57,511 bases of DNA from Phoronis australis (Eukaryota; Animalia; Phoronida). The notes under the pieces are model-generated. The model searched no databases. It was not told where the DNA came from and saw only the letters and a program-made list of their open reading frames with translations. The position numbers and the translations under genes were made by a program. The stretch covers positions 172,267-229,777 of the forward strand of contig NMRA01000252.1 of NCBI GenBank assembly GCA_002633005.1, given 5' to 3'. Below are positions 1 to 50,105 of the stretch, one piece after another (positions within the stretch are counted from its first letter, which is position 1; every line of letters begins with the position of its first letter).

Positions 1-2
1 GA

Positions 3-438
3 GCGTGTCGACGATGTGGCCAGTGTTTTAAATACTCCAGTGGAGCAGACGAAGACGGTCATCTGTCACCCTACGTTTACGATCTTGTCGTGGCTCTGTG
101 TGGAAGACGGATTGAAGAGGCCATGGTACGCGTGATTCCAGCTGCCCGGGACCGTATGCTGGATTTGTGCAAAGGATGCGGGAAGCCATTTTTTACTGGT
201 CGCTGTTGTCCACCCGGGAACTGCTGTGGATGCGGCTGTGGCGGATGCGGGGGTGGGTGCGGGGGTGGGTGCAGAGGCGGGTGCGGAGGTGGATGCGGGT
301 GCTGTTCTAGAGGAGGCATCTGCTGTGGTAACGACCCAACAAAGACGCCTGCCTGCTTTGATCCGTGTCCGCCGTGTCCACCGATCGGGACGTACCAAGC
401 GTACATGTCACTACCGTGGATGCCTCGTCTTGGCCCGT
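3..438 (+). CDS. G0: partial exon (5'-truncated by window edge) of a Cys/Gly-rich protein with module A and a (C/G)n + PCPPCPP tail
   Basis: Frame of ORF 90..575 is open from position 3 (ACRRCGQCF...). Module A at 96-200, followed by CCPPGNCCGCGCGGCGGGCGGGC. Strong donor T|GTAAGT at 438/439 (phase 1). Confidence 0.75.
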
Positions 439-638
439 GTAAGTATGACGTAACATACTCTCATCAACTGTTCTCAGTAGTCTCGGAGCCCAAGTCTCTG
501 ACTATTACACTTCACTTCGTCCTAAAGGTGGCAGGCTCCAAAGAAATTCTAAAATCGTTTATCTTCTTTGACTAATAGTATGCATGAAAATTTAAAATGT
601 TCTGCTTTACTGTTATTTAGTTTCTATCCACATAGCAT

Positions 639-858
639 ACGCGCACCCAGCCTTTAATATGGGAGGCTCGAATTTCTGGCGATGTGGACCTTTTGCTGAC
701 AAAAAAGCAGCAGGACTAAAAAAGGGGGGTACCACCTTCAGAACAGTTGTGTGTCTGCGCCTTTTTAGTGGATTTTTGTCTCGTTTTCTCGGGTCTTTTT
801 GTTTCTCTGTGGCCGACTTTTTGCCCTCCGAGCCACCTCTCTGACCTGGGTGCGTGCA
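639..858. mobile_element. Small MITE-like insertion
   Basis: Imperfect inverted ends GCGCACCCAG...GGAGGCTCG and CGAGCCACC...CTGGGTGCGTGC around ~220 bp of non-coding DNA; no clear TSD. Confidence 0.3.
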
Positions 859-1057
859 CGCATACAATGTAACTACGTAAATGGGATCTAGTTGCACTGA
901 AGTTTTCACGCACCAGTAAGACAAATAAAATTTAAGTGTGTGCTTAGTCCGCAACAATGCAGTCAAAAGCTCCTTGTTTCATTTTTCGTGTTTTTATTTG
1001 AAATCGATGTCACCAGTAATGGACGCTATACGCATGTCGAGACGTTTTGTTTTTCAG

Positions 1058-1954: not shown

Positions 1955-2497
1955 CCTACATCTATGCAATTACTATTTGAAGCCAACTGTTATGTCACAT
2001 ACTGGTAAATTGCTGATTATATAATTGTCGAAATCTCGTGTGAAAAAGCGATGCCACTCATGGGATGGATGATACTAACTTTTTTATTTTCAAAAACAAA
2101 TGCGCTTCAAATTTTAATGTGAATTGTCATTACTCCAACATCTGTATTCTAAAAAGACTCAAAATAAAATGCTGCATCTGAAACTATTTTAAAGTTTTCC
2201 AACCCTTAAGAGGCCTCCTCAGTTACCCCTACAGACGGTGAAAACCCACATACGCGCCTCTTAATCAGCACTGGGACTCGGAATAACCACTAAATATATT
2301 CACGACAAATTTTCCATCCAACGCAACCCTTGTGACGTAGAAATCAACATAGGAAAACGTAAGCATTGCATTATTCGTTTATTAGTTTTTGTGTAATTGA
2401 GGAAGCTCAGGGTAAACTGCCCTCGGTGCTGGTTACTCCAACTCGATGGTCGTGCAATAACAGACAAGGCCTTGGTCAGGGGCTTGGACATTGCGAC

Positions 2498-5072
2498 ATG
2501 TTAGCTACACTCAGATCAAAGAACAATTCGGCCCAGTATGATGTAGACGTTACAGAAGCAACAACGGCTGATCACAGAAAAATTCACAAAAAGAAGAAGA
2601 AAAAAGGTAAAAACAAAGAACCAACTGAAGACAAAGTTGAGGAATGTGTCGACGGAGTACAGCAAGACGTGGACATTGTGAAACAGGGTACTAAAAATAG
2701 CAAGAAGAAACACGGCAAAAGTGAAGACACAGAACACAAGGGGAACGAAACGGAATCAAATGTGAAAATGAACTTGGGACCAGCAACTGGTGAAAATGAG
2801 GAACACGAGGACGGAAGGAGAGAAAAGAAAAAGAAGAAGAAAAGGAAAGAGAGAGAAAACTATGAGAAAGAAAGTCCAACCACGTTGGTCAAAGAAACAA
2901 GAAATGACAGTCTCGGAGGTAAGGTCGAGACTAACGAATCCAGAAATAAAAAAGACAGCGAAGTTAAGAAAAAGAAAAAGTCTAAAAATAAACACGGTGA
3001 TGTTGACCAAACAACAAGTGGTGACATCAAAGATAGTGAAACAAATGAAATTGAACTATTTCAAGAAATCGTTAATCACGACGATGATCAAAAAACAAAA
3101 CCAGGGGGCGTTAAAGAAGACAAAACAAACAAGAGTGTTGACAAAATCCAGACATCTGAAAATTTGCATGATACATTGGTTACCAAAGGGAGTGAAGAAA
3201 TTACGAAAAGTGAAATTCCCGTTGGAGCGATAGGAAATGAGGTTGCAGAAACCACTAGCAGCAGCAAGAAAGAAAACAAGAAAAAAGGAAGGTCTAAACA
3301 AAAATCTCAACAAAACACAAATCTTGAAAACGGCACATCTCCTACTGAGGGAAAACCCCACAAAGAAAGCCTCAAGCGGAAAGAGAATGCAGAGACGACA
3401 AAGAAAAATATAAGCGATAGAAATGATACGGGAAAAAACAGCTCCAAGCCGAAAAAGCATCGCCATAAAAGTGGTGGGCATCAAGACGAAAAGGAGACAA
3501 GTTCAGCCTACAATGAGAGAAATTTAAAAGAACGAAGTTTTGAAAATATCGCAACTATTGAGTCAGGTGAGAATGTAGCAGGCGATGAGCATGAGCAGAC
3601 TAAACGACGTAAGAGCAGACGCAAGTCTAAAAACCGTCACGAAAAAAGTGGTGGAAAAGATAAAGAGGAAATGGCAGTGTCAGCTAGTCAAGAAAAGGTT
3701 GTCAAACCACAAAGTTTTCAAAGTGCAATAAATCTCGAAGCGGGTAGCGCCACTGGGTACAATACGACAGGCGATAAACACGAGGAAACCAAAAGGGACA
3801 GAAAAAGCTCTCAGACTAGAAATACACGCCATAAAAATGTTGACAATGTTGAGGATAAGGATGCGATTTCAGCTAGTTATGAAAAAAATATCAAAAAAAC
3901 GAAAAATGCCGCAACGATCGAAGCAGATGAGACGACAGCATCCAAGACAAAAATGCACCGCGATAAAAGTGGAGGAAATGAATATGAAAAGAAAGGAATT
4001 TTAGCTATCCATGGGAAGAGTCTGAAACAAAGCTATAAGCATGCCACGGGCAGCAAGACAGAAAGCGATGACTTAACAGAATTCAAAGATCACAAAAAAC
4101 ATACACGAAAATGTTCCAATGCGCCCTCTGACAAAAGCAATGATAATCAATACAGCAACGGGAAAGAACTGGAACGAGACAGTCGTAAAAACATAAATTA
4201 TGTCAGAAAACACAGAAGAGAGCATTCAGACCGCATTGGAGATGCTAATGATTTTGACGAATTCCTCAAGCCATCTGAACAAACCAGTGACGGTGACCTA
4301 TATAACCTTGTACAAGAAGACGACGTTCCAGCCAGTGAAAACGAATCGGACGATGATCAGGACTTCGGTGAACTACTAATAAGCAACGATAACGCTTCAT
4401 CTGTAGTTGGACTGCTTGGCGAAATCGAACAAAGACAAAAAATAGAGATTCCACCGAATGCAAGTAAACCAGGCATTCTGAGAAAAACAATTGGGGAGAA
4501 ACAAAAAGAGCAAATGGAAAGGAGGTCTTCGGAGGGAGAAAAAAATTCCCCACCGGATTTCTTAAAGGTTCCAAGCATGAAAGAAATAATGAAAGATAAA
4601 AAGAAACAGCGGAAGGGAGCAAAGGAAGCTAAACGATTACAGAAAAAGTCAGCAGCCATGAAAGGTGAAGACAGTGACCAGTCCAATCAATCACATACTG
4701 GTGAAATCGAAGAAGATGACTATGAACAACATTTGCACTTCCACAATTATTTGGGAAAACGGGAACCTGGTACCAGAGAACATCCTACAGACGGTACCGA
4801 CGCATCCCGAGATACCAATGAATTCAAACGCCTTGCAGCGAAATTCGAAGTATTGAGCAACAAAGAAGAAGGTGACCAATCGAGCTCGACGATGAGATCA
4901 ACCACAAGTGACACAACATCCTATCCATTTCAGGAAAGTTCTTCTTTTGCAAATGAACAGCTAAGAAAGGAACTATCACAACTTCGAAGGAGGATTTACT
5001 CGCTTGAACATTTTGAAAACAAACCACTTGTTAAACCAGGAAGTCATTTCATAACTCGAGTTGGAAGCATGG
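2498..5072 (+). CDS. G1 exon 1: very long Lys/Glu/Ser-rich low-complexity region ending in a short predicted coiled coil
   Basis: 909-codon ORF 2366..5095; first in-frame ATG at 2498. Poly-K tracts; EQLRKELSQLRRRIYSLE at 4955-5008. Putative GC donor G|GCAAGT at 5072/5073 (phase 1). Confidence 0.8.
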
Positions 5073-5474
5073 GCAAGTGTTTTTATTTCTGTTAAGTTTT
5101 GGTCGTTTTCATGGTAGACTATATTTGTGTGTTTAGCCTTTTCTTGCGTCTAGTGTTACTCCGTGTTTGTTGTTGAAATACAAGTGACAATGTAAAGTAG
5201 ATGAATACGGACACTTGTTAAAAACTACCAATATGAAATGTGTACCAACCAATTGATTTGATGGGCCCAGGAGGCGGAAATTGTTGGTCTTTTTGTGGAA
5301 AATGAAGGTCTGATTGTTGACCATCCGCGGGTCAGAAATGTGAAGCTCTCAGCTAGATGTCTATAATTCCATTGTTTATTCCCTTCTCGGCTCGTTGATT
5401 ACAAAACTGTTATGTGAACGGAAAGGAACGACTCTGAGCTTCTGTGTCATTAGAGATGTGCATTTCTTTTCTAG

Positions 5475-7117
5475 CTCCTTCCTGGGTAAATGAAATAGCT
5501 AAAAAGGCCAGACCTGTAATTAATCCTTTTACGATGAACTATCAGCCATTAACTCCGGAAACAGCGCAAAAATATCCAAGCCTGTCCAAATGCGGCCAAT
5601 GCAAAATTTGCAATAAGGAGATAACTGACTTTCGTGACGTGATCAACTGTAAACGGTGCAGTAAACCAATTCCGCAAGGACAGGTGAACGAAATGAAAAT
5701 CGGTCAAGATGACCATAATTCTAAAAGCAACTCGCCATTTGATCCACGATTCTACTTCCATGAACCAGATATTGCGTATGGAAAAGTTGCTGATGACCAA
5801 GAGAAATCAAGAGAAACCAACTATGGACACGGTGACCTTGGTATTGGAGAGTTTATGGGACCCGATGGGAAGATGAGGCAATGCTTGGTTTGCTTTGACG
5901 TGCATCTGCTTCCCGTCTCGGAGAGTGAAACCTTTGATGACACAAATACCTCAGCTGAAGACAGTACCAATACCCTAAGTGAGTTGTTTCAAAACAGAAA
6001 TCAACATGAAAACACTGTGCCTACGAAGCAAAAGCCTTCGGAAAACAAGTTTCAACTTCAAGGGGAGCCAATTCACATTCTTCGCGAGAAGCGGGGCTGC
6101 GGTGGTTGTGGTGGGAATTGTGCTTGCGCAAGAAATGCTGCTGCGAAATACAGAAAGTTGGGTAGTAATGTGCCTAATGCTGGGCCGTCGCTGACACCGA
6201 AAGATATTTATTCTGACGACCGCACTGTTGTGCGTTCAGAGCAACCTGCCTATAACAAGCATACTGTCCAAAGAAAAAACCCAATTTCTTCATTGAACGA
6301 CAGGACGCTCGCAAACAATAAGGCGATGAACCACCTGCAAAGTGGTCTTAGAGATCAGTTATATGCCAGTTATGCAACCGCCAATAACTCCGCAAGGAAC
6401 TCATCTTACTATTTTGTACCTCAGCCACAAAATGTTCACTTCCCCACGAGCACCGCCGATTCGTCACGAAGCTCATCTGATTCAGAGAGCAGTTCAGAAA
6501 CTGACAGTGACTCCATTAGGAACTGGTTAGAGCTACTGAGAAACAACAAGGATAATTGGCATCCCGATTCACCGATTGCCAATAATGTTTACAAAGAAAG
6601 ACGTTTAAGAGGTTTTTCAGACAATACATCTCCACAGCCATCAAGTTCTCGTTCTCGCAAACCTGTTTATAAACCCGGGTCAAGCAGCAAGCGTGTTCCG
6701 TATAACTCATCACTTAAAGCAAAGAACAACAACGCGAACTTGCAAGATTCTGTCGGAAAACTGTCCACTTCTTTGTGCAGGCAACGTGTAATGCAAGCAA
6801 TGCATTGGATATTGCCAGCAACCAAAAACGGCAAGCTGGCTATATGTAAGAAATGTTCCAAACCTGTGTTTTCTGGGGAGCTTATATGCTCCTCGGAAAA
6901 CAAGGTCACAATGAGATATCCAAAATGCCGGTGTTCGAAAAGTGCCGTTGCATACACGGTTGATATCCACGAAGAGACGTCCACTTTGTTGGATTCCCTG
7001 AACAAACAGGTTAGCAAAAAGGCATCGAAGAAACTGCACAATGAAGTGCCCCCAGCTTCTAGTAAACAGATTGTTCACAAAACCCTGAGTAACATGGTTG
7101 ACAGAGAATTTATCAAG
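5475..7117 (+). CDS. G1 exon 2: module B (N-terminal), Ser-rich linker, module A (C-terminal)
   Basis: ORF 5444..7132. Acceptor CATTTCTTTTCTAG ends at 5474 (phase 1, matching the exon 1 donor); donor AAG|GTAATT at 7117/7118 (phase 0). Clear similarity to G2 exon 2 (module B) and to G0/G3/G4 (module A). Confidence 0.85.
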
Positions 7118-7790
7118 GTAATTATCATTTGAGTTATTGAGCCAGCTGTGCGCGAAAAAATATCACCAAAACCGGCTTCAAAGCAGACTTTCGTCACAAA
7201 AACATTTGCCTCTTATCGTCATGAAAGTGGCCTAAAAATGTGTGAAACGTCGGTTATTGCTTGAGACCATGTTGCGTTCATTGTATGTTGGTTCGTCACG
7301 ACGTATCATGTTATGCACCCAGCATGCTTTCAAGAAACAACGAACTGTAGGTTGTTTGCACACTCAGAAACATTTTTTCATCTGAGTAAGGAACAAATTG
7401 AAATGCATTTTACAGGGGTAAGAGGCCTAGCTCTAAACTTTGTTTGTTGGTCGGAACGCAGGTTTATGGCTGCTTTGAGCTGCGTAGTGATGGTAACAGA
7501 CTAAACAGGACTTAGTAATGGGCTTACGTTTGAACTGATTATTCGACATTAGAATTATCCACCCAAAGTCTTCGCAGAACTGGAAAACGTGCGCCCTTTT
7601 TATATTAACTTCTTTAGTGCTAGGTCCGCCACCACCAGCTAACGACAAAAAAATCTCGGCGCGAATAAAATACACACAGTACTTGAGCTCAAAATCAAGA
7701 ACATTTTTCTGCCCAAAGAAACTAAGATAAGATCAAGTTTGAGTTTCGACATTCAACCTTTGGGCCCTGAGATTTGATTACCTTTTGTAG

Positions 7791-7877
7791 GTGGCTCAGA
7801 ATAGCGACACTACTTCCGGTCGAATGATGGTGGACATTGTGCTAGACCTCATGACTCATGGCCGAGCACAGACGTAG
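7791..7877 (+). CDS. G1 putative terminal exon (VAQNSDTTSGRMMVDIVLDLMTHGRAQT*)
   Basis: Acceptor CCTTTTGTAG ends at 7790. Phase-0 reading gives 28 codons then TAG; AATAAA at 8010-8015. Spliced G1 would be ~1434 aa from ATG 2498. Confidence 0.5.
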   Translation: MAQNSDTTSGRMMVDIVLDLMTHGRAQT

Positions 7878-11430: not shown

Positions 11431-13046
11431 GGCGACTTGAATCAGAAGAGGCAAGGAGTCTTTCAGTGGTTTGTTTTCAACTCAGTAGGCCCAGCCTACT
11501 TGCGTCAAATGATCCGTCATGTACATTTTATTTACAGCAAGTGTTTGTTTACGTGTCAGAAAAAAAGGACAGCATACTCAACCGATGGCCAATTATAAAC
11601 ACATCCTTAAGAAATTGACGTTTCAATCGGATTTTGATGGACCTTGAACGTAGCCACTTTCCATAGGTGACCTGCTTGTCGATTTAAAATAACTACTACT
11701 CAGCTTAGACCCATGTTGATGAAATTATGGCAAAACAAATTCGCTCTAAATTTATTATGACAAAAAATTAAAATTGACGTCTTTTAGCCCCAAACCACTA
11801 CTTCCCTGCCACTTTTAGAGATAAGCCAACACAACACTAGATTGTGAAAGCAAACTTCTTGCAGATTCCAAAATTGTGGTCCATAATGCCAACCAAACAG
11901 ATTGTTTTAGCAATTCTGGTGTGAGGCCTTCTTTAACTCGCAGTAGACTTTTTGTAGCTACACAGAGCTGCAACAATGGGACATGGCGTCGCCATTTTGA
12001 TTAAAAGTGTAATTACATCCGAACTAGTCGACTTTTTCTCATTCTCAAAATGTTCACAAATACAAACAAACCGGATTCACTGAAGCTACTAGTAATGCCT
12101 ACATTTAAACTGTCGCCAAACTTGACCAACCCCAAATATTTAATATCTAGTGTAAATTGAACGTGGCTGCAGTTGAACTGTAACGCTTAATTGGGATACT
12201 TTCTAATCATGACTCAATAAGGCAGAACGTTCATGTATTGTTCACTTTGGTAAAGCGGAAAACGTGAGAAAAGTGCAGTTCATTGTTCTCGTGCAAAAAC
12301 TAAAATTCAAGGTAATACATTTAAAAGATGTCGTCTTATAACAAACTTTTGTTTGTTTATAAAGTTTTGGTGTGCATTACACTTTAAAAGTTTAACGATT
12401 GTCAAAACTCGTGCTTGTATCATTTTTAGACATTGCTGCATTCGTCAAATGCCAATGGTAAAGCTGAGATGGAGCAACTGAGCATCAGATATCATTTTAG
12501 AATATAGGTGGACATGCATGCAATTTGTGTGTGGTACCATGGAGAGCTTGTTGAATAATAGTTTAACAGGCTTGTGTAAAGTGAGGTAAAAAACGCTAAA
12601 TAATGACAGCACTCCCATACTGTGGGCAACGAATGTTTTATTTGTTGTTCCAGTTGAATCAAACAAAGTTGCGAAATGCATAACTTGTGAACTGGGTATA
12701 TTCAATGTTTATCAGGGGCTAGATTAACTGATATGGACTGGCTTCTCACCTGCATGCTTTTTTAACAAAATGAGATCTTCAAGCACAGAAACTGAATCGG
12801 GGACAACAACGAATGTTATAAACTGGCCTCGTTTTTAAGAATTAAATGTATTAGTTAAATGTTGATATCCCGTGCGATGTTTTCCAACATGTTTATGGCG
12901 ACATCAATTGCCAGTTTGGTGATCCTGGGCGTTCCGGCAATAATGTGTGACGTTGTACGATTGAAGTGTACGTCACCTGAAGCCTGAACGTGTGTCGTCT
13001 ATATAACTACAAGGTGAAACGTGGTTCAGAAATATCTTATACACAA

Positions 13047-14139
13047 ATGAGTCCGTCACAGGTCAAGTGCTGTCACAAGCAGTGTGCAAACCAGGAATAC
13101 AATTATACAACACTACACGATCACAAACGGAATGTGAATGGGATACCAATGTGCAAAAGAAAGAAGGAAACGATACGACAGAAAGATATAAACAGAAAAC
13201 TTGGAGCACAACGGAAGATCCTTTTAAGAAACATGCAGAGTATTGAAGATTGGGTGAAGAACCAGATTTGGACAAAAGGAGATACTAGTGACGACATCAC
13301 ACAGTACAATCGTTTACAACTCCTGCCTACAGAATGCCAAGACACAACCAATACGTTGGCTATGGAATGCAAAGGTGACCAGTATACTGCTAACGAAAAA
13401 AATCAGCGTCTTCGCCGTGACCATTGTTTGTACGATTGCACCCATTTCTGTAGTAAGCCAAACGATTTTGAGAACTTTGAAAATCGAATGGTTCAAAATC
13501 ACGGCGATACATTTAACCGGCAAAAAAGTCGTATCTCGTTAAATTTTAGCAGCAAAAAAAGGAAACGGCACAAAAAGAAGTTTAACATGAAACGTGACGT
13601 GATAGCAAAAAAAGAGAATAGCACAGACAGTAAGTATTCGCGAAACAAAAATAAACAAGAGACAACAAAGAAAGAAAAGATAGATACCACGAAAAAAAAC
13701 AAAAAGTCGAAAAGAAGTGTCTCAAATATTACGAAAGCCTCATCAACAACAGACGCTTCCAGGATAAAACGGAAGAAGAAGAAAGAAAAAGAAAAGAAAT
13801 CTAGTCAATCTACACCGGAGTTGACCACTTCACAAGAAAAACAAGATGCACCTGTCTACAAAGAACCAGGTGTGGAGGAGGCAAAAACTGTTGAAGAAGA
13901 CCATGACGAAACAGCGTGCATTTCAAAAAGAGCGTCTTTTTCAAGTGAGGACGAGAAAGCAATGCGAGACGAACTTCAAAAACTTAAAGAAAAAGTTCGT
14001 TCACTGGAAAGCGACTTGGGTATTTCCGGGGGAAGCGAATTGCATTCGTCACAAGAAAGTTACCGTGAGCTTCATCGCATACGGTTAGAAAGGTACATGG
14101 GCAGAAAGGAAAAAAGACGCGTCCAAACAAAAAAATCGA
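13047..14139 (+). CDS. G2 exon 1: Lys-rich region plus short predicted coiled coil, paralogous in layout to G1 exon 1
   Basis: ORF 12990..14207, first ATG at 13047 (true start uncertain). AMRDELQKLKEKVRSLE at 13959-14009 resembles G1 EQLRKELSQLRRRIYSLE. Canonical donor A|GTAAGT at 14139/14140 (phase 1). Confidence 0.75.
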
Positions 14140-15642
14140 GTAAGTACAGTGAACATGGGGCTTCTGTTTCCGTGTTTCTTAGTCGTATTCCTAGTACGAG
14201 GATATAACGTCCCGGCAAGCATAGCCTCAACGGTTTTCAACCTTGAGCACTATAGTTAAAAATGTCCACGCAACATATTTGTGTTTCAAACTTGAGCAGA
14301 TCCCATTGTACATAGAAATAGCATTTTGGTGTAACCTGGACTCAAAAAAATCGAATTCGAAATTATCTTTCACATTTTCCGTTCTGTTAATGACCTTCAC
14401 AACACCTATATCTTAGTCTGCTCTCCAGCAGATTATGGTTTACGCATATGAGAGTCTTTCCAACTTTGCAAAGTCTGGGTTCGAGTTCAAAATCGATATT
14501 TCAAGAAATACTCAAAACTGGGAGTTCAGAATGGTGGAATCACCAAATGCAAAATAGGACTAAGCAGTCATCCATTTCAACCGTAATATCCTTGGGTGCA
14601 GAACAATAAACAAGAATCTTGACCTCTTACTATAGTGGAATAGAACATGTCATTTGGAGTAAAAAAGTTAGGCCCTAGGCCTGGACTTGTGAAAAAATGC
14701 GTAAATGCGTTAAGCCAGCAAGCGTTCGTGCAATGTTTTTTTTTGTAATTATCGAGGGTTTTCACCGTGTATAATACTTAAAAACGTTAAATCTAATTTT
14801 GAATTTTAAAGTAAAGTTAATAATTTTTGGTTTCTCCTCACGTGATGTCATCAGTGGAAGATGAGTTGACAGCATGTGTACTTGTATAATGGCGGTGGTA
14901 GCGATTGTAAGCTACGAACACTTAAATAGCAAGATTGACGAATATCATTAAGGCAGGAATGCAGATGGGGGTGAAGACGACACTCCAGACATATTTGAAA
15001 CAGAAAACAAGTTAAACCTCGCCATTTCGGCAGACTTTGCGTGCTTGTACGAACTCAACCCACCTACACCGGCGAGTGACCCCGAGTAAGAGCATATTCA
15101 GTTTACGGACACTAGTCCTGATTTCAGAACTAATATTTCTGAGGGGTATTTACATTTTTATATTGAATCGCGATTTAATTTTCAAAACTCTTTAGTGTCA
15201 AGAAGTATGCATATGTCTGGAACTGTTAATCTATAAGCAAAGGTTGTACCCTGTCTAAGTTCAGCAGAGAATAGCAGCAAAATTGAATTCATTTCTTCGA
15301 ATGCCAAGAACGATCATAACTAATTATGGTGATGCTAACTGGATTTTATTTCTGATAAATGATACTCGTTTCTGTCTTGTCTGTCCCAAACTTTTGAAAA
15401 CTTTGTACTGATTTTTCGTCGGATATTTCGGTCTCATAGTGCCCGACTTCGGTCTCTGTTCCGGCTATTGCGGTCGGTGACTTCAAACTATTTGCTGGGC
15501 TTCTGCTTTAAATTTCTACGATTGGGCATTGACATATATGTTGATAGCATGCATTTCCACAAACTCTTGAAAAATAATATAGACTGATGGAAACTTACTG
15601 CAATCATATTTATTATCTCAGTCACAATTCGATGCCGAGGCT

Positions 15643-15731
15643 CTCAATATGTGCCTGACAACTACGTTCCCGGCAATGGTACGACACTCATACTTAATAT
15701 GTGTCTGACAACCGCGTTCCCAGCTATTGTA
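15643..15731. repeat. Left remnant of the 50-bp minisatellite
   Basis: ~1.7 copies of the unit found at 17384-18190. Confidence 0.85.
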
Positions 15732-15740
15732 GTCAGATAT

Positions 15741-17380
15741 TGTCGTATAAAAGTGAACTGAATGTGGAAACTGAGAAGCCATGTTTATTCACCATTACAT
15801 GAGTCAGGAACAGGACACACAGAAGTATGGGTAACTCATGAAATTGGGTCACAGTCCACGGGAGATAGATGACCCACTAACTCATAACACTGACAATAGG
15901 TGGCGCTAGTGACATCCATTTAACAGTTCACAACATTTCTCCACACTTAGTTGAAGGAAAACCGAAAACAACAACTAACAACAGCACAGTTCACGAATCT
16001 CTAAGGAACTCTCTTGGAATATGTCAAACGATCGGGAGGTTTAGAGACTCGTGCATTGCGACGTAACGGAAGAGCAACTGGGGTTACGCGGCGAGTTCGA
16101 AATACCAGCAGTAACATCATCCTGAGTCCCTTCTGTTGTGGGAACAGGAATTGTGGACGAGGAGTCAACAGGAATGTCCAAATTTGACGGTTCCATGACT
16201 GTTTTGTGTTCAGTGTCCAAAGAAGCTCTGGCACTTTCGGTTTCATTTGACTGACTTGACGTTAACTCGTCGTCCACCTTCACATCATCTGAAAGACCAA
16301 TCAGATGATCAACATGACCAAATCTAACTTTTCCCTGGGCTTTAACCAGATACGTAAGTGGTCCACACACTCTCACAATACAACCTTTGATCCACTTGTC
16401 CCTGCCCTTATTGTGGTTTCTTACCAAAACAGGTTGAAACATTTCCAAAGTTTTCAATTTACTGCTAACATCTACAGCATTAGACTTACATTCAATAGAC
16501 TCTGCAGAGTTTGCTTTCAACAAGGAAAAACGAATTCTGGGTTCTCGTTTCAAAAGTATCTCCGCTGGAGTTTTACCCGTGACACTGTGTAGTGTGTTAC
16601 GATAACTCATCAAAAAACTACCGTAATCCGTGATTAAGAGTACTGTATGCCTTGTTATCGTGAACCTGAGGGATCAAAGCTTGCTTAATAGTCTGAACCC
16701 CTCTTTCTGCACTACCATTTGAGGCTGGATGGTAAGGAGGTACTAAAACTTGCTTAGCGCCATTCACCTCAAGAAAAATACGAAAATCAGCCGACGTGAA
16801 CTGAGGTCCATTATCGGAAACTACTTGTTCCGGCACACCATAAGCCGCAAATAAACGTATCAGAATGTCAATAGTCTTTTCACCAGTAACACTAGCCATG
16901 GCGAAAACTTCAAGCCATCTAAAATAGGTGTCTACAATAATAACAAAGTACTGTCCTTCCTTTTCAGCATAATCTATATGTATACGTTGCCAAATTCTAG
17001 TCGAACGAGGCCATGGCAACTTAAAGCAAGAAGGTGCATTGCGTGAATGCAGACACGCATCACACGAACTAACAACATCCTCAATTGATTTATCAATCCT
17101 AGGCCACCACACATGACTACGTACTGAGGCCTTCATTCGGGAGGTACCAGGATGTTCAAAATACAGTTTACTTAAAATTGTTTCCTGAGTTTAGTAGGGA
17201 TATCAACTCGTAAGCCCCACAACAGACAACCCTTGTCAACCGATAACTCGCCTTTGCGAGTATCTGGCCTCAAATCCTCATCTGGACAAAAACTAGGCCA
17301 ACCCTTAAAAGATAACTGATAAACCTGAGCCATCACAGAGTAGGACTTAGTCTTACTAGCAATATCACTAACTTAGCTTC
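15741..17380 (-). mobile_element. 5'-truncated Ty3/Gypsy LTR retrotransposon: degenerate integrase plus 3' LTR (~15741-15935)
   Basis: HPG..RMKASVRSHVWWP..C..C zinc finger, RIHIDYA, VSDNGPQF, YHPASNGSAERGVQ, YRNTLHSVTGKTPAE and a GPLTY tail; frameshift near 16616. On the minus strand a purine tract precedes TGTTG at 15935, there is an internal AATAAA (15784-15789), and the LTR ends CGACA at 15741. Confidence 0.9.
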
Positions 17381-17383
17381 AAG

Positions 17384-18190
17384 GGTACAACACTCATACT
17401 CAATATGTGCCTGACAATCACGTTCCCAGCAATGGTACAACACTCATACACAATATGTGCTTGACAACCACGTTCTCAGCAATGGTACAACACTCATACT
17501 CAATATGTGCCTGACAACCACTTTCCCGGTAATGGCACAACACTCATACTCAATATGTGCCTAAAAACCACTTTCCCGGCAATGGTACAACACTCATACT
17601 CAATATGTGCCTGACAACTACGTTCCCAGCAGTTGTACAACACTCATACTCAATATCTGCCCGACAACCACGTTCTCAGTAATGACGCATTACTCATATT
17701 CAATATGTGCCTGACAACCACGTTCCCAGTAATGGTACAACACTCATACTCAATATTTGCCTGACAACCACGTTCCCAGCAATAAATGATACAACACTCG
17801 TACTCAATATGTGCCTGACAACCACGTTTCCAGCAATAAATGGTACAATACTCATACTCAATATGTGCTTGACAACCACGTTCCCAGTAATGGTACAACA
17901 CTCATACTCATATATGCCTGACAACTACGTTCCCAGCAATGGTACACCACTCATTCTTAATATGTGCCTGAAAACCACGTCCCCAGTAATGGTACAACAC
18001 TCATACTCTTATACGCCTGACAATTACGTTCCCAGCAATGGTACAACACTCATACTCAATATGTGCCGTCAACCACGTACCCAGCAATGGTACAACATTC
18101 ATACTCAATATGTGCCGTCAACCACGTTCCCAGCAATGGTACAACACTGCCTCAATATGTGTCTGACAACCACGTTTCCAGCAATGGTAT
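17384..18190. repeat. Minisatellite, ~50-bp unit x ~16
   Basis: GGTACAACACTCATACTCAATATGTGCCTGACAACCACGTTCCCAGCAAT repeated head-to-tail with point variants and small indels. Confidence 0.97.
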
Positions 18191-18224
18191 AACAAAAACA
18201 CTACATATATTTCGAATGCACTTA

Positions 18225-18590
18225 CATGTTGGAGAAACCTTCATCAAATATCCACTTCTGCGATGGGTTGAAGCACGGTTCTTCAAAATGGGCTGATCAT
18301 AACGTGGCCCCTGAACTGATCGCCTGCACCGTGGATTGACATAACCGTTTCTGACGCACGTACGCACCTGCGCCACTTCTGGGTTATCTTATATCGTCTT
18401 ATGGTAACACAGAAATTGAAATATTGTCTGTCTGACTGCTATTACTGCATCCTTTGCAAACGCACCTTTCCGTAATACTCGTCTAAGGCAATAGTCAAAG
18501 AATGTTAAACTGCATTTATGATTATTGCTCTTCTTGGGGCATGAGTGTAAATCCCTGTTTTCAGAAATGGCCGCCAACTCAGAGCATATG
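18225..18590 (-). pseudogene. Degenerate THAP-domain fragment
   Basis: Minus-strand pieces LHSCPK ... QKWRR ... (frameshift) SAHFEEPCF resemble THAP FHxFP/W/CSxHF motifs; ends at a GTAAGT donor. Confidence 0.35.
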
Positions 18591-18639
18591 AGAAGTGGTA
18601 TTATGGAAATCAAGTAGCGGAGGTTGTCTCCCAATATGA

Positions 18640-19548
18640 ATATCGTGGAATATTTTTACACCAAGATTAGTTTGGTCCAAAGCCACTAAAACTCTGGCAC
18701 GTCAAGGTAGTAAAGCTGCTATGTCTATCTCTGAAATTAGAAACCGGTGCACGGAATTACCATTGAGTCTTTCACTTGAACTGTTTGATAAAATTGCTGT
18801 GCCAACTATGTGCTACGGTGCGGAAATCTGGGGATTCAAAGAATATGAATGGCTTGAAAATGTATTTGTTAAATTCTGTAAAATTGCTCTTGGATTTGGA
18901 AACTCTTGCTCAAATGCAGCTGTATTGGGTTAATGTGGAATTTATCCGCTCTATGCAAAGTACGATGTCACATGTGTAAAATATTGGCTAAAGTTATTGA
19001 AAATGCAACCTACTAGATACGCTAGAGCGGCTTATGACATGCTAGCTGATTTTGATCGGAATGGAAGAAATACTTGGGTATCTTCTGTTAGACAATTGCT
19101 ATCAAAATACGGTTCTTATGAAATTTGGTTGAATCCAGTTGTCACGTGCGAATTCTCGTTTTTAAGTATCTTCGCTCAAAGAGTTAATGACTGCTATGAG
19201 CAAGGTTGGCGATTAGAAATTGAGCATAATGCAAAACTTAAATACTATTGTAACCTTAAGACTCTGTACTGTTTTGAGCCATATCTTAAGTTACCATTAC
19301 ATGACAGTCTTATTCAAGTGTTTACTTTTTTACGTTGCTCCAACCATAGACTACAAGTGGAAGTGGGTAAACATGACAAAGTGGAATATTACAATAGATT
19401 ATGTTTGATTTGCAATGATGGTCTTGTAGAGGATGAATGCCACTTCCTGTTGATTTGCAAGAGATATTGTGAACTTAGGTCACGTTTTATGAAAGAAGTT
19501 CAATGGAAGCATCCAACTAAAGAATCCTGTGCACGCCTTATTTTATGA
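18640..19548 (+). mobile_element. Non-LTR retrotransposon (LINE) ORF2 3' fragment, inactivated
   Basis: LFDKIAVPTMCYGAEIWG, LRCSNHRLQVEVG and RLCLIC..VEDECHFLLIC are typical LINE ORF2 C-terminal motifs. In-frame TAA at 18931. Confidence 0.85.
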
Positions 19549-19653
19549 GTACGTGTGTTTCGTAATGTGATTCGTATTCTAAATCAACCAAACGGGCTGA
19601 TCAAAATGCGCATCCGGTATAGAAGAATTTGCAGAGTTCTGAAGTTTTACAAT

Positions 19654-19949
19654 GCTTTCTTCGTTATACAGAATTGGTTAAATACACGACACTTGTCGTT
19701 GTTAACAGTCTCTATTCCGTTGCGTTCGTATCCTCGGAACAAAGTTCGACACTAACGGAACATTGGTAAAGCAAATGACCAAGAGACGTGGTTGAAAGAC
19801 ATACGCTATTTCGAAACATACTTGTGTTCTCAAGTGGAAATAAAATGACACAGTAACACCACCACAGAGCAAACGGTACGCTGTAGTACCATACACGGCA
19901 CGTGTGAAATACTGCAAAGAATGACACATGAAGGCGGTAACAGGAAAGT
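19654..19949 (+). repeat. Dispersed repeat, inverted copy of 23684-23967
   Basis: GTTCGTATCCTCGGAACAAAGTTCGACAC and GTGGAAATAAAATGACACAGTAA appear as reverse complements at 23770-23900. Confidence 0.9.
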
Positions 19950-19975
19950 GTAGCGTCTAATTGGCTATTACTCAA

Positions 19976-20400
19976 TAAAGAGGTGGATCGTAGAAAACAA
20001 ATCCTGGTGAATAATGGCTACACGAATGCTCTTGTAGACCGTCATATTAGTCGATTCTTATCCAAAAATTATCGTGAATCCACTGCACTTAGCACTGTGT
20101 GACCAAAAAGGTATTTTACAAAAAAAAACTGTTATGTCCGATAATTACCTCTAGGACGAACACGCCATTAACAAACTCAGCTGGGATAATGTTAAAGTTT
20201 GTAAGCCCGATGATTACCTCGATGTCATTACTTGTTATCGGAATAGGAAGTCCTTCAACTTCGTCATGAAAAATAACATTTCTAAAGCGAAAGCCCGCCC
20301 CGTTGCCCATTGTAGTGTTCTTTATGAGTTTGTATGCCCTGTGAGCGAATGTCTTCGTTTAAATGTCAAACAGTAATACATTGGCACCCCCCAATGACTT
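19976..20400 (+). mobile_element. Penelope-like element fragment (RT C-terminal region to GIY-YIG start), degenerate
   Basis: KEVDRRKQILVNNGYTNALVDRHISRFL, then YEFVCPVSEC...YIG with frameshifts. Confidence 0.6.
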
Positions 20401-20899
20401 CAAACATGGGATATGCAGAATCGATCTTTGACGCGTTTCATTGGCTAACATTTTTGGCCATTTTTGCAAATTTCCGGATTCACCAACGAAAGTTTCGGGC
20501 CACTGCATAACACGTAATAAAGCGTTACAAAACAGCGGTGTTTCTACTAATTCTTAAGCGATAAACTTACCAAACTTTGTGGTGGACAAATATGTTTATC
20601 TTTCCCGTAAGATATCCTTATTACATGTACCAAATATCCACGACAATATCCCTGATATCGCACTGCAGCACTGGTCGGTTCCGTTGTTAGCATGCAAGCG
20701 GTGCCCGGAAGACAATCGCGATTCAGAGATGTGCGTCTCTTTTTTATCGCATAGGACAGCCAAAGGGAAAATGACAACCCAATTAATCACCAAACGACGG
20801 CCTAGTCTTTACTTTCAAACCCTTTACTTGTTTCTGGGGCTACGTGCGTGAAATATGATTTGTCTGGTTGTGGCCTTGAAGAGCGAATACGTGAGCTCA

Positions 20900-21885: not shown

Positions 21886-22299
21886 ACAAGCCTCGCTGCC
21901 CGGTCTAAAGTCGGTAACGCAGTGATTTCTGCTGGCTTCTCAAAACATTTGCACTTAATAACTCTTCAAGGCATTACAAGTTGTATCTAATGAGAGAATT
22001 TGTTTCAATTTGATATTAGTTATTATTGGTTGGGGAGAGAATAATTCATGTTAAAACAGAACGCACAATAATAAAAGTCAACGTGGCAACTCGCAATCCC
22101 GACTTAGTGTTGATCCGACGAAGACTTCGCAGGTCGATCGTTAGGTTTCACAGGTTATCAATTCAAACAGGAATACACTGATCAAGAAATACTAGAGAAG
22201 CTCCGTGAACGTGCACAGACAACGGAACGTGGACAATTCCCAAAACCGAAAACTCATTAGGCACAACATTTGATTTCAGCCTCAGTCTCTTTTTCTGCC

Positions 22300-23967: not shown

Positions 23968-24005
23968 GTGCTACCGAAGTACAGCCAATGTTTTCTTCAA
24001 CGTAG

Positions 24006-39531: not shown

Positions 39532-39535
39532 TTAA

Positions 39536-46279: not shown

Positions 46280-48445
46280 ATGGGACTGGGTCTCCCCAAA
46301 GACAAAACAATTCACAAAGATACATCAATAAAACATCATATTACTTCGTCCAACGTGGCGCGTTTCCAAGGAAACAGTTCTCTGTCACCGGTATGGCACT
46401 GTTCTCTGTTCACTAACAACTCCAATAGGAATCGCAGGAAAAAACGCCATAGACATAGCCACTCCCTGCCCAAGACGAGCCGTCGTCGGAACCGTCGACA
46501 TTATGCTTCATATTCGTCAGTCACTAGTGTGAGTGACAACAGTAATTTTTTTGATTACCACGATGATTTGGCTAACGAGAACGATAATCTATGGCAAAGT
46601 AACTCGGCTTGGCCAAGTGACTTGAGTGATTCCTGGAGACGTGAAGCGTCGCACAGAAAAAAGAAGAAAAAGAAAAAGAAAAAGAAAAAATCCGGTAAGC
46701 ATCTACCTGATCATGACGAAAACCATCCCCGGCGCATGCCCACGGAACGTCCAAAACCAAACGTTAAGCAGCTTTCTGAACGTGTTAGTGAACTGCGGGC
46801 TGAAGTAGAGTCAGACTTAGCAAAAGGTGTCGACATCAAGAAAAAGTATCAAGACAGAGCTACTAAACAGAAAAAAATAGAAGAAAAAGCGAGACAAGAC
46901 AGGTTGAAAATCTTAAAAATGAGAGCAAGACGTATCAGAATACCTAAAAAAAGGAAGGCTGTTTTGAAACACAAAGGGAAAACTATTGATATAACGGAGC
47001 GATTTCGCAAGAAACTGGAGAAATCCAACTTGGCACCTTTGAAGATTCGAGTATGCGGTGCCCATGGTTGTGGTGCCGTTTGGCCGGTCGTAAATCCGGA
47101 AAGCATACGTTATCCATCCGGCAAACCCGTTATTTTTAAGAATCCTCAAACGTGTCTCAAATGTAACAGTAACAACCAGTCTAATAATGAAAACAATTTT
47201 ATTGACGAAAAAACTGACAACGAGAACAACTGTGCCAGTCCACGCACCCAGCCTCGAAGAGATATTCCGTCACGTGACCGGGAGGTGGGCAGCTTTTCGG
47301 ACATGCGAGGAGGGAGGGGGCAAGTGAGAATCTCACCTTCTTGGTACGAAAGAGGGAGGGAGTTCCCGTCACGTCATAGTCGTGATGACCCAAAAGGCAG
47401 AGGCGGCCCGTCACGCGGAGGGTTAAGGGGCCGAGGCGGACCGCCGCGAGGAGGATTACGAGGCAGAGGAGCTCCGCGACGTTACGGTGCCGGACGTAGC
47501 AGATCTAGTCGACCGCCAACTTTGCTCAGTGGAAAAAGTATAATTAGAACGAAAAATACGAATAAAATGAGTCATCATGTAGGGGATGTCTTCAAGCCGT
47601 GTCCGTGTTGTTGTTGTTGCAGAGAACCTTGCACCTGGTATCCGGTAGAAGATGGCCAAGCTACTGATAGCAAAATATTTCAGGCAGATGCTTTAAATGA
47701 TTTCGTTGACGTACAAACTGAGAAGGCACATAAAACGAAAAACGAAGAGAACAATTCCACGTGCAGTTGCCGATGTTGTGACTCCAGCTTTGAGTCAATA
47801 GACTGCATGAATGAGGTTCTGGACGGTGGATATGGAAAAATAGCTGAAATGTGCGCAGAAAGAATAAAAGATGCACTTGATTGGATTATCCCGGCAGCAC
47901 AATGTGGTGATCTCACCTTATGCGATTTCTGTGATAAACCCGTGCTTGTTGGGCGCCCACACTGCTGCAGGGCATTAAGAACATGCTTCGCAGAGTGTTG
48001 TAAAGACGGTGAGTCCAGTGGGGGGAAACAATATGACTCGGACAAAGATGCCAAAACGAAAAAAGAAAAAGAGAAGAAAAGGAGGGAAATGGAAAAAAAG
48101 AAAAAACAAAATAGTGAAAAAAGTAAGGGCGATGGGAATTCAGATGACAAAAACAGACAGAGAAGAAAAAGAGATGACCAAAACAGACAGAGAAGAAGAA
48201 AGGATGACGAAAACATGGATAATGAGGATGAACACATAAGTTCGAAAGTTTCAAAACACAAAAGGACAGATCCGCCTCCGAAGGAAGGAAAGGAATATTA
48301 CTGGAGCACGAAACCGGAAGAAAAGGAGGAAGAAATTCCCGAGTTATTTAAACATGGCCATTTCCAAAACAGGCAAAAAGACTTAAGACAAACTCCGCCA
48401 AACGAAAACATTAATAGAAACTGTAGCAAACGTTTAAACTGTTAG
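46280..48445 (+). CDS. G3: ~721-aa basic protein (Arg/His tract, poly-K, predicted coiled coil, motif C, RGG repeats, Cys clusters, module A, charged tail)
   Basis: Uninterrupted 723-codon ORF, first ATG at 46280. Module A at 47849-47953, motif C at 47036-47092. Colinear with G4. Confidence 0.85.
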   Translation: MGLGLPKDKTIHKDTSIKHHITSSNVARFQGNSSLSPVWHCSLFTNNSNRNRRKKRHRHSHSLPKTSRRRNRRHYASYSSVTSVSDNSNFFDYHDDLANENDNLWQSNSAWPSDLSDSWRREASHRKKKKKKKKKKKSGKHLPDHDENHPRRMPTERPKPNVKQLSERVSELRAEVESDLAKGVDIKKKYQDRATKQKKIEEKARQDRLKILKMRARRIRIPKKRKAVLKHKGKTIDITERFRKKLEKSNLAPLKIRVCGAHGCGAVWPVVNPESIRYPSGKPVIFKNPQTCLKCNSNNQSNNENNFIDEKTDNENNCASPRTQPRRDIPSRDREVGSFSDMRGGRGQVRISPSWYERGREFPSRHSRDDPKGRGGPSRGGLRGRGGPPRGGLRGRGAPRRYGAGRSRSSRPPTLLSGKSIIRTKNTNKMSHHVGDVFKPCPCCCCCREPCTWYPVEDGQATDSKIFQADALNDFVDVQTEKAHKTKNEENNSTCSCRCCDSSFESIDCMNEVLDGGYGKIAEMCAERIKDALDWIIPAAQCGDLTLCDFCDKPVLVGRPHCCRALRTCFAECCKDGESSGGKQYDSDKDAKTKKEKEKKRREMEKKKKQNSEKSKGDGNSDDKNRQRRKRDDQNRQRRRKDDENMDNEDEHISSKVSKHKRTDPPPKEGKEYYWSTKPEEKEEEIPELFKHGHFQNRQKDLRQTPPNENINRNCSKRLNC

Positions 48446-48716
48446 TTGAATCTTGTTGGAGTCGGGACGGCCTAATCGTTTAAATCAGGCTAAGACTCAA
48501 AACACAACCAAACACCCTGATTCGAATACGTATGCAAGTTTCCTGTAATCGTACCATGCAGTAGATCTAGTATAAAATCATACCCCGGTCTTCATTTCGT
48601 ATTAATTTACATACATGTTTACAAAATTCACGTGATTTAAGGAATGTTGCGGTGATAGTAAAAACATGTTCACGCTCTAAACGACAGCATGTAACCAAAC
48701 TAGCGTTATCGAACTC

Positions 48717-50105
48717 ATGAACTCTCTCATACAGCAAACCCTCAGGCTCAACGAAATCATTCCACTAGAAGACGTTTTGGACAGAGTGGTTGTGTTAGAA
48801 TTGCATAGCGTCACTGCACACAAATCTAATTCCGCAAACTCGAGCAAGGAAACATTTCGATCGGCAATACCATGTAGAAAATGTGGAACCACTTCCTTCA
48901 AAGTTGACGAATTGAACATCACTACAAAGTTACACGAAGAACATGGGAGCAGGTCGCAATCATCAGTTCTCCGTACATCCAACCAAACATATTGCGGTAA
49001 CATCTCAAACAACAGCAGACGACCGTCCAGAGCAAGACGACGACATCATCATCGACATCATTCGCGACAAAGCGATAACGAGTCAAGAAGACAAAGACGA
49101 TCCAAAATTGTTCGATCAAAACGGAGAAGTGGGTCGTCATTGAGGCGAAAACACATGAGGAGAAAGAAAAAGAAGGAGAAAAAGAAAAAGAAAGAAAAGA
49201 AAAAGGGAAAGGAGTTGACAGACAAGCAACAGGCAGAAAAGGATATTATGCAAGCCGCGGGTCAAACAAAAATGACGCGAAGAATGAATGAAAACTGGAT
49301 GAACGTGCATAAACAAAAACGAGATGTTATGAGCTTAGGAGCCAGGTGTAATTTATTAGCAAAAAAGATGAAACTTTTAGAGCAATACCCCGTAAGATCT
49401 GCCAAAAGTTTTATGAAAGCAGCACAAATGATTCCACTTACGGTTCGATGCTGTGGAGCCCCTGCATGCCCGCCTTGTCCGCCGGTAGTAGTCAAGTGTT
49501 GCTCTGAACAGGACTGTCAGGGATGCGGCTGCAAGAAAAATGCGGACACTGTTATAGCCGGCAAAGACATTAAGCGCGATGATTTCGGCAACGACGTCAA
49601 CTTGCAAATAGGCAACGTCGATACTGGAAACGATGACAGGTGTTCGTGCAATAAATGCTGTTCTGTTAAAGCTGGGAAACGTGGTAATAGGGGCAATGTT
49701 TCAATAAATGGACGGAAACTGAGCGACAGGGACTTCATGCAGTCGAAAGGAAACATTGCATTGAACAGATTCCGTGCCGGCAAACGATTTTCTGAAAACG
49801 ACTTTCCGTGTCGAACTAGAATACCACAACTTTGTCAACGTAGAAACTCACGAAGTAGTGACGACTCTGTCGATGCTAACGAGGTATTAGAAGGTGGTTA
49901 CGATAAAATTGCAAACATGTGCATTGACAGAATTAAAAATGCGCTCGATTGGGTTGTACCCGCCGCGAAAAAAGGAGAACTGGAACTTTGTAAGAATTGT
50001 AACAAACCAATCCTCAGTGGAAAAGAACATATTTGTAAAGGTAATCGCTTACCATGGGACACAAAAGTTAGACGGGATAAGAAAGCGAAAAATAATAAAA
50101 AGTGA
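48717..50105 (+). CDS. G4: 462-aa basic protein, tandem paralog of G3
   Basis: ATG-initiated ORF. NEVLEGGYDKIANMCIDRIKNALDWVVPAAKKGELELCKNCNKP aligns with G3 NEVLDGGYGKIAEMCAERIKDALDWIIPAAQCGDLTLCDFCDKP. Motif C at 49434-49490. Confidence 0.88.
   Translation: MNSLIQQTLRLNEIIPLEDVLDRVVVLELHSVTAHKSNSANSSKETFRSAIPCRKCGTTSFKVDELNITTKLHEEHGSRSQSSVLRTSNQTYCGNISNNSRRPSRARRRHHHRHHSRQSDNESRRQRRSKIVRSKRRSGSSLRRKHMRRKKKKEKKKKKEKKKGKELTDKQQAEKDIMQAAGQTKMTRRMNENWMNVHKQKRDVMSLGARCNLLAKKMKLLEQYPVRSAKSFMKAAQMIPLTVRCCGAPACPPCPPVVVKCCSEQDCQGCGCKKNADTVIAGKDIKRDDFGNDVNLQIGNVDTGNDDRCSCNKCCSVKAGKRGNRGNVSINGRKLSDRDFMQSKGNIALNRFRAGKRFSENDFPCRTRIPQLCQRRNSRSSDDSVDANEVLEGGYDKIANMCIDRIKNALDWVVPAAKKGELELCKNCNKPILSGKEHICKGNRLPWDTKVRRDKKAKNNKK

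What the first reader, a model, noticed from the sequence alone, without database searches (positions are those of the whole stretch)
96..50021. Module A: 35-aa ungapped Cys motif present four times
Seen: LCGRRIEEAMVRVIPAARDRMLDLCKGCGKPFFTG (96-200), LCRQRVMQAMHWILPATKNGKLAICKKCSKPVFSG (6773-6877), MCAERIKDALDWIIPAAQCGDLTLCDFCDKPVLVG (47849-47953) and MCIDRIKNALDWVVPAAKKGELELCKNCNKPILSG (49917-50021). Eleven of 35 positions are invariant (C2,R5,A9,P15,A16,L22,C25,C28,K30,P31,G35) with no indels, and each copy is followed within 2-5 residues by another Cys (RCC, ELIC, RPHCC, KEHIC). Inference: an amphipathic helix plus CxxC knuckle forming a small Zn-binding or oligomerisation domain I cannot assign.
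Basis: partly seen in the sequence, partly recalled or inferred. Interest (0 to 1): 0.82.

Follow-up and report, generated by a model that had tools for sequence, protein, structure and literature searches.

The report
Orphan zinc-knuckle module in basic proteins
Four of five neighbouring, co-expressed genes in what is likely an invertebrate animal share an old 40-residue helix-plus-cysteine module with no relative found in our searches; it likely binds zinc and likely acts as the docking unit of large basic proteins that are likely made in developing sperm.

Summary
Leave-one-out profiles score the omitted copy at 43-75 bits against a background under 9, and synonymous sites are near saturation (pS 0.58-0.97, pN 0.28-0.39), so this is an old protein module under purifying selection. 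RNA reads place the copies in four of five same-strand genes (g1, g2, g4, g5). All five genes are at about 80-260x in runs X2 and X3 and about 0 in X4. The four complete products (462-1434 aa) are basic, with no signal or membrane segment. AlphaFold2 predicts helix plus CxxC hairpin (pLDDT 80, pTM 0.47). No Pfam family or outside homologue was found, but animal coverage of the libraries is uncertain. Best reading (0.45): a single-zinc docking module of lineage-restricted sperm structural proteins. Tissue, zinc binding and partner are inferred, not shown. It is not a cylicin, protamine-type protein, Mst(3)CGP protein or canonical treble clef. Real and unassigned, but of modest interest.

The parts
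96..209 (+). Module A copy 1, with the downstream Cys pair, in g1
6773..6889 (+). Module A copy 2, near the C-terminus of g2 (residues 1292-1330)
47849..47968 (+). Module A copy 3, in g4 (residues 524-563)
   Evidence: also held in an X1 contig (table 8)
49917..50036 (+). Module A copy 4, near the C-terminus of g5 (residues 401-440)
3..439 (+). g1 coding exon, open at the 5' end of the window; spliced to about 1059, where the frame stops; 145 aa visible, 17% Cys, Cys/Gly/Pro tail at 204-383
   Evidence: joint 438-1058 GT..AG in 77 (X2) and 58 (X3) reads; depth 84/79/0; translation
2498..7877 (+). g2: three exons (2498-5072, 5475-7117, 7791-7877), 1434 aa, pI 9.1; K-rich N-terminal half, short coiled-coil-like stretch (4952-5008), module B, module A copy 2
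   Evidence: joints in 219/168 and 188/143 reads (X2/X3), depth about 110-236 over the two large exons, 0 in X4
5576..5929 (+). Module B in g2 (CxxC-x12-CxxC-x-KP plus two further conserved blocks)
   Evidence: blastp with the g3 copy 36% over 132 columns, E 5e-19; alignment A3
13047..25363 (+). g3: exons 13047-14139 and 24006-25363, 816 aa, pI 9.7; paralog of g2 through module B; no module A
   Evidence: exon 1 depth 113/105/0; loose ends at 14139 in 50 and 34 reads match only 24006-24029; GT..AG, frame kept.
24035..24424 (+). Module B in g3
46280..48445 (+). g4: one long open frame, 721 aa, pI 9.8, K+R 22.5%; module C (47036-47164) and module A copy 3
   Evidence: depth 126-160 (X2), 115-126 (X3), 0 (X4), no joint listed within it (121 joints were not shown)
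48717..50105 (+). g5: one long open frame, 462 aa, pI 10.1, K+R 22.7%; Arg/His/Lys tract at 49017-49214, module C (49434-49526), module A copy 4
   Evidence: depth 224-263 (X2), 194-244 (X3), 0-0.3 (X4); RNA 3' pile-up at 50355
2333..2338 (+). CRE-like TGACGT, 43 nt before the 5' pile-up of g2 reads at 2376
   Evidence: noticed after the fact
12948..12953 (+). CRE-like TGACGT, 29-41 nt before the 5' pile-ups of g3 reads at 12977 and 12989
   Evidence: noticed after the fact

Best explanation
Module A is an old, conserved protein module shared by four co-expressed genes of a five-gene cluster, and it likely folds around one zinc ion and likely docks these large, basic, probably disordered proteins onto a common partner, most likely in developing sperm. 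Shown: the module, its purifying selection, the gene models and the shared on/off expression. Predicted: a helix followed by a CxxC beta-hairpin. Inferred: (1) C2 in the helix, C25, C28 and the Cys at 37-40 are the four zinc ligands, with the invariant Pro15 bending the chain so that C2 can reach the knuckle; (2) the invariant helix face C2/R5/A9/A16 with L22, K30 and P31 is the binding surface; (3) the Lys/Arg tracts bind a polyanion such as DNA or tubulin tails; (4) the extra Cys clusters cross-link the structure once zinc leaves, as described for mammalian outer dense fibres; (5) the expressing tissue is testis.
For: Conservation at protein level only. Four Cys in 4 of 4 copies. AlphaFold2 helix plus hairpin, pLDDT 88-90 over residues 21-70. 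All five genes stranded, + sense, about 80-260x in X2 and X3 and about 0 in X4, while repeats in the same stretch are covered in all three runs. The four complete proteins have pI 9.1-10.1, K+R 18-23%, large hydrophobic residues only 18-21%, and no 19-residue window above 1.11 Kyte-Doolittle, so no signal peptide or membrane segment. Of 26 listed coding differences between reads and genome, 16 change the residue; the only one inside module A is synonymous, at invariant P31. CRE-like TGACGT within 60 nt upstream of 2 of 2 mapped 5' ends, against 3.4% of window positions. Parallels in print (passages read): basic Lys-rich, fast-changing cylicins (PMC10684152); clustered Cys-rich male-specific Mst(3)CGP genes (PMC10645079); zinc bound to outer-dense-fibre cysteines before oxidation (PMC7589359); CREM occupying clustered spermatid genes (PMC3091680).
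Against: The tissues of X2, X3 and X4 are not given, so testis is an inference. X2 and X3 share heterozygous sites (5992 and 6117) and may be one animal or one pool, which leaves one on/off contrast. The AlphaFold2 helix runs unbroken through Pro15 and pTM is 0.47 from a four-row alignment, so the model as reported does not show C2 at the zinc site. The last Cys shifts between positions 37 and 40. The helix of copy 2 is not amphipathic. g3 is co-expressed without module A, so the module is not needed by every member. The CRE-like site was found after the fact, is absent from the 271 nt before g5, and CRE sites near -45 are not confined to testis genes (PMC3091680, passages). Defining features of cylicins, sperm nuclear basic proteins and Mst(3)CGP proteins are not met.
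Confidence: 0.45

Rival explanations
1. The module is the same zinc-binding docking unit, but the cluster serves another cell type or stage (oocyte, a ciliated or epidermal cell, a larval stage) as intracellular structural or nucleic-acid-binding proteins.
For: The on/off pattern in unlabelled runs fits any restricted tissue, sex or stage. Basic, low-complexity composition is not specific to sperm (own knowledge).
Against: The combination of very large exons, basic and Cys-rich composition, many residue-changing differences, no relatives found, clustering and a CRE-like upstream site is most typical of male germ-line genes (papers cited above; own knowledge). No single item is decisive.
Confidence: 0.27
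2. The cysteines are for disulfide cross-linking, not for a structural zinc site; the module is a helical interaction motif with a redox-active CxxC.
For: The proteins carry other Cys runs (six in a row in g4; 24 Cys in 145 residues of g1). The fourth Cys is not in fixed register.
Against: L-x-x-CxxC-x-KP-x-x-x-G with a predicted hairpin is the layout of zinc knuckles, and the weak, non-significant sequence matches to solved structures are to such knuckles (eL24, bL31, PINCH LIM, p62; E 0.3-2.4). The proteins have no signal peptide, so they would sit in a reducing compartment.
Confidence: 0.13
3. The helix is an A-kinase-anchoring (AKAP)-like helix that binds D/D domains (PKA regulatory subunit, ropporin, SP17 type) in the flagellum, with the knuckle as an appendage.
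For: A recalled AKAP consensus pattern matches copies 3 and 4 at module positions 6-17; both helices are amphipathic.
Against: The pattern fails in copies 1 and 2 (2 of 4 match), contains the invariant Pro15, and is permissive. The consensus is from memory; a paper search for it returned nothing. It does not explain the invariant C2 and R5.
Confidence: 0.08
4. The copies are remnants of a transposon or endogenous virus protein, or a chance likeness among low-complexity frames.
For: The window holds mobile-element relics (integrase at 16621-17190; Psq helix-turn-helix at 50995-51228).
Against: Copies lie in intact, stranded, expressed frames, two of them in spliced genes. Reads over them are not repeat-like (none in X4). 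There is no DNA-level similarity between copies, synonymous sites are near saturation, and leave-one-out scores are 43-75 bits. A long-domesticated origin cannot be excluded.
Confidence: 0.04

Closest known systems
Treble-clef and related mononuclear zinc fingers (eL24 type; classification in PMC4999995, passages read)
   Same: A CxxC knuckle in a beta-hairpin together with a helix that carries a Cys; module A's best, non-significant, solved-structure sequence match is an eL24 knuckle (E 0.33).
   Different: The canonical order is knuckle, loop, hairpin, helix, with two ligands from the helix start. In module A the helix comes first, holds one conserved Cys, and the fourth Cys follows the hairpin.
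Cylicins CYLC1/CYLC2 (PMC10684152, passages read)
   Same: Large, basic, Lys-rich proteins with most of the coding sequence in one big exon and a volatile sequence; structural role in the sperm head.
   Different: Cylicins are defined by KKD/KKE repeats and pI above 10. Here there are 1-4 KK[DE] per protein and only g5 reaches pI 10. No Pfam match to any family.
Drosophila Mst(3)CGP sperm-tail proteins, Mst84D and Mst87F (PMC10645079, one passage read)
   Same: Clustered, co-expressed, Cys-rich genes; the g1 tail is a Cys/Gly/Pro run.
   Different: No Cys-Gly-Pro triplet in any of the five products; the products are large and basic and share a folded module.
Sperm nuclear basic and transition proteins, such as TNP2 and the Drosophila HMG-box SNBPs (PMC9917458 and PMC9258737, passages read)
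   Same: Lys/Arg/Cys-rich; g5 has an Arg/His/Lys tract; TNP2 DNA condensation is zinc dependent (seen only as a reference title in PMC9258737).
   Different: SNBPs are mostly under 200 aa with pI above 10. These are 462-1434 aa with 10-15% Asp+Glu and no HMG-box or histone H1 domain match.

Membership tests
Any Pfam-A family | Score at or above the curated cut-off | tested here: not met
   0 of 11 queries and 0 of the 4 module A and 3 module B queries reach a cut-off; best for module A is Zn_ribbon_PADR1, E 0.049, 13.9 bits against 25.1.
Canonical treble-clef zinc finger | Order knuckle, loop, hairpin, helix from N to C | tested here: not met
   The model has the helix first, then the knuckle hairpin; definition from PMC4999995.
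Canonical treble-clef zinc finger | Two ligands from the knuckle and two from the helix start | tested here: not met
   One conserved Cys in the helix (C2); no second conserved Cys or His there.
Circularly permuted treble clef or zinc ribbon | Structural superposition with a solved member | tested here: inconclusive
   the long helix dominates the comparisons and pTM is 0.47.
Zinc finger (any) | Tetrahedral zinc binding by four Cys/His | not testable with these tools
   Four Cys kept in 4 of 4 copies; binding needs an assay.
Cylicins | Repetitive KKD/KKE motifs | tested here: not met
   2, 4, 1 and 2 occurrences in g2, g3, g4 and g5.
Cylicins | pI above 10 | tested here: not met
   1 of 4 complete proteins (g5, 10.13); the others 9.09-9.78.
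Mst(3)CGP | Repetitive Cys-Gly-Pro | tested here: not met
   0 occurrences in 5 of 5 products; g1 is seen only in part.
Sperm nuclear basic proteins | Small (under 200 aa) and strongly basic | tested here: not met
   462-1434 aa, pI 9.1-10.1; full size of g1 unknown.
Sperm proteins (any class) | Testis-restricted expression and presence in sperm | not testable with these tools
   Runs carry no tissue label; on in X2 and X3, off in X4.
AKAP RII-binding helix | Amphipathic helix matching the consensus pattern (recalled) | tested here: inconclusive
   2 of 4 copies match, with a Pro inside the match; D/D binding not tested.

The most novel reading that the evidence does not exclude
Module A is a zinc-finger topology not yet described: a helix gives one Cys, and a following hairpin gives a CxxC and a fourth Cys. 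It acts as the shared assembly tag by which a lineage-specific family of large basic proteins, mixing modules A, B and C in different combinations and transcribed together from one cluster, builds a sperm structure, a solution reached independently of mammalian cylicins and outer dense fibres.
Probability: 0.2. Interest if true: 0.6.

Novelty: new variant of a known kind. Interest (0 to 1): 0.32.

Why it matters
If the best reading holds, it gives a defined 40-residue folded unit in proteins that are otherwise unalignable, so the family can be traced in related genomes and its partner fished out. It would also give a marker cluster for one tissue or sex in this animal. The ligand layout does not fit the canonical treble clef and could be a new small zinc fold. 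Against a higher score: lineage-restricted, basic, Cys-rich gene clusters are common in animals, no relative or partner was found, and no long-standing question becomes testable through it.

Tried and rejected
Homologue searches. Word-based search with the module A alignment, longer proteins: 0 of 900 candidates at E<=1. With g5 residues 370-462: 0 of 33. With module B: 0 of 964. HMMER over 1.84 billion representatives with the 51-column profile: 3 hits at E<=0.001, all rejected because the scores sum 5-10 short matches in repeat proteins that lack the module's Cys pattern. ESM Atlas: no usable hit for g5 380-450 or for g2 exon 2; this shows neither absence nor novelty. g4 and g5 exact sequences are not in the collection. 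Viral contigs 0 of 74 and metagenome contigs 0 of 228 (module A) and 0 of 80 (module B) confirmed. These collections are mostly microbial, so absence in other animals is not shown. No whole genome is held, so further copies outside the window are unknown. Folds: Foldseek against PDB and BFVD gave no match at E<=0.001; VIA-align against 48,161 chains gave best Z 3.7, generic long helices; a missing match does not show the fold is new. Solved-structure sequence searches: nothing credible for module A, module B (one antibody hit from two summed weak stretches) or g5. Module B model was unusable (pLDDT 40). Complex prediction of two copies of copy 3 with zinc: no verdict (score 0.02, mark 0.32, alignment not used); it is not evidence either way. 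Run search: no RNA holder listed on record; the raw-read runs came by species label. Earlier scan findings: none near, none by sequence, none in relatives, none for sperm or testis words. A paper search for the AKAP consensus string returned 0. A resemblance of the knuckle to Headcase (recalled) was dropped: no Pfam hit.

Full report
Observation. The four peptides are in the sequence as quoted, all on the + strand. A further Cys follows at module position 37, 39, 39 and 40. A profile of any three copies finds the fourth at 42.8-75.3 bits; the best unrelated score in the window's six frames is under 9 bits and no fifth copy appears. Best ungapped 35-mer identity between host proteins (15-24) exceeds the maximum of 15 block shuffles (11-15) in 6 of 6 pairs. 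Between copies, pS is 0.58-0.97 and pN 0.28-0.39 in 6 of 6 pairs, and blastn finds no DNA match between them. The module is therefore old and conserved as protein.

Setting. The window has low coding density, 41% GC, spliced introns and mobile-element relics, which points to an animal genome. Unreviewed notes on other pieces of the same genome call it an invertebrate (not checked by me). No whole genome is held. RNA reads of three runs and contigs of a fourth were laid on 1-14600 and 38000-57511; 14601-37999 was not covered. They define five same-strand genes. g1 is open at the window's 5' end and splices 439 to 1059. g2 has three exons and 1434 aa. g3 (816 aa) joins 14139 to 24006; this joint rests on loose read ends (50 and 34 reads) that match one place only, with GT..AG and the frame kept. 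g4 (721 aa) and g5 (462 aa) are single long frames with no joint among those listed (121 joints were not shown). Module A lies in g1, g2, g4 and g5, 61-197 residues from the C-terminus. g2 and g3 share module B (36% over 132 columns, E 5e-19). g4 and g5 share a weaker Cys motif, module C, seen by alignment only.

Expression. All five genes are read on the sense strand at about 80-260x in X2 and X3 and at about 0 in X4, a run of the same study and species label in which repeats of the same stretch are covered. The runs carry no tissue label. X2 and X3 share heterozygous sites at 5992 and 6117 and may be one animal or one pool, so this is one contrast, not two.

Proteins. The four complete products have pI 9.09-10.13, K+R 17.8-22.7%, D+E 10-15%, runs of five or more Lys/Arg, and no hydrophobic 19-mer above 1.11. 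I infer intracellular, largely disordered proteins; no disorder predictor was run. Of the 26 read-versus-genome differences that the two tables listed in coding sequence, 16 change the residue; the tables omitted 1183 and 10 further rows over the whole stretches. The one listed difference inside module A is synonymous at invariant P31.

Structure. AlphaFold2 on the four-row alignment gives a helix (5-41) and short strands around the CxxC, mean pLDDT 80.1, pTM 0.47. The helix is significantly amphipathic in copies 3 and 4 only. Four Cys are common to all copies: C2, C25, C28 and one at 37-40. I infer a single zinc site with the chain bent at Pro15. The model as reported does not show this bend, so C2 could instead bind in trans or form a disulfide. 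The canonical treble clef has the order knuckle, hairpin, helix and two helix ligands (PMC4999995, passages), which module A does not meet; a permuted form could not be decided.

Relatives. No Pfam family reaches its cut-off. The protein, contig, Atlas and fold searches are listed under Tried and rejected; the only three HMMER hits were repeat artefacts. The libraries are mostly microbial, so 'orphan' means that nothing was found here.

Mechanism. Best reading (0.45): a zinc-stabilised docking module that brings large basic proteins to one structure, most likely in developing sperm, with Lys/Arg tracts binding a polyanion and spare Cys clusters cross-linking later. The sperm inference rests on composition, very large exons, clustering, many residue-changing differences, on/off expression and a CRE-like TGACGT 29-43 nt before both mapped 5' ends (background 3.4% of positions; noticed after the fact; absent before g5). 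Rivals: another tissue (0.27), disulfide rather than zinc (0.13), AKAP-like helix (0.08), mobile-element remnant or chance (0.04).

Comparison with the literature. Passages were read in PMC10684152, PMC10645079, PMC7589359, PMC3091680, PMC9917458, PMC4999995 and PMC9258737; no whole text and no supplement was read. The supplements of PMC4999995 describe each treble-clef family and could bear on the permuted-fold question. The proteins work, on my reading, like cylicins or outer-dense-fibre and Mst(3)CGP proteins, but fail the defining features of each and of sperm nuclear basic proteins. The eight paper searches were for comparators; the module has no name to search for, so I cannot say that it is absent from print. 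The AKAP consensus and the Headcase resemblance are recalled, not from a call.

Verdict. Real, expressed, conserved and unassigned: a new small Cys module in a lineage-restricted cluster of basic proteins. Novelty: new variant of a known kind.

Noticed in passing
window 5576-5929 and 24035-24424: Module B: a second unassigned conserved module shared by g2 and g3 (double CxxC ending in CxxC-x-KP like module A's knuckle, plus two more conserved blocks). No Pfam cut-off reached (best DUF2688, E 0.00055, 19.8 bits against 25), no homologue found, model unusable.
   Followed up: partly
window 47036-47164 and 49434-49526: Module C: a Cys motif shared by g4 and g5 after a basic helical stretch; blastp did not pick it up, so its significance is not established.
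   Followed up: partly
window 5073-5474: The first intron of g2, used in 219 and 168 reads, has a GC donor (GC-AG intron).
   Followed up: yes
window 1138-2193, 7937-11231, 11448-13060: Minor spliced read-through links g1 towards g2 and g2 to g3 through a small exon at 11231-11448 that holds a 44-bp tandem repeat (1-8 reads per joint and run).
   Followed up: no
window 48446-48716: g4 and g5 are 271 nt apart, with no AATAAA in the gap and no 3' pile-up listed; binned depth doubles from about 125 to about 250. g4 RNA may run through g5 to the shared 3' end near 50355-50400.
   Followed up: partly
window 16041-17190 (-): LTR-retrotransposon integrase relic (rve E 2.4e-13, Integrase_H2C2) inside the 9.9-kb intron of g3.
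   Followed up: partly
window 17380-18194 and 15643-15731: 50-bp minisatellite of 16 copies, with a short second patch, inside the g3 intron.
   Followed up: no
window 18934-19548 (+): 204-codon frame resembling the C-terminal end of a LINE reverse transcriptase (recalled resemblance; no Pfam hit).
   Followed up: partly
window 50995-51228 (+): HTH_psq transposase-like relic (E 3.4e-5) just downstream of g5, in a stretch read at about 5-14x in X2 and X3 and 0 in X4.
   Followed up: partly
window 1881-1953 (-): tRNA-like sequence (Rfam 33.1 bits) not called by ARAGORN; probably a tRNA-derived repeat or pseudogene.
   Followed up: partly
window 35479-35673: Assembly gap of 195 N between g3 and g4; 25364-37999 was not covered by reads, so a further short cluster member there is not excluded.
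   Followed up: no
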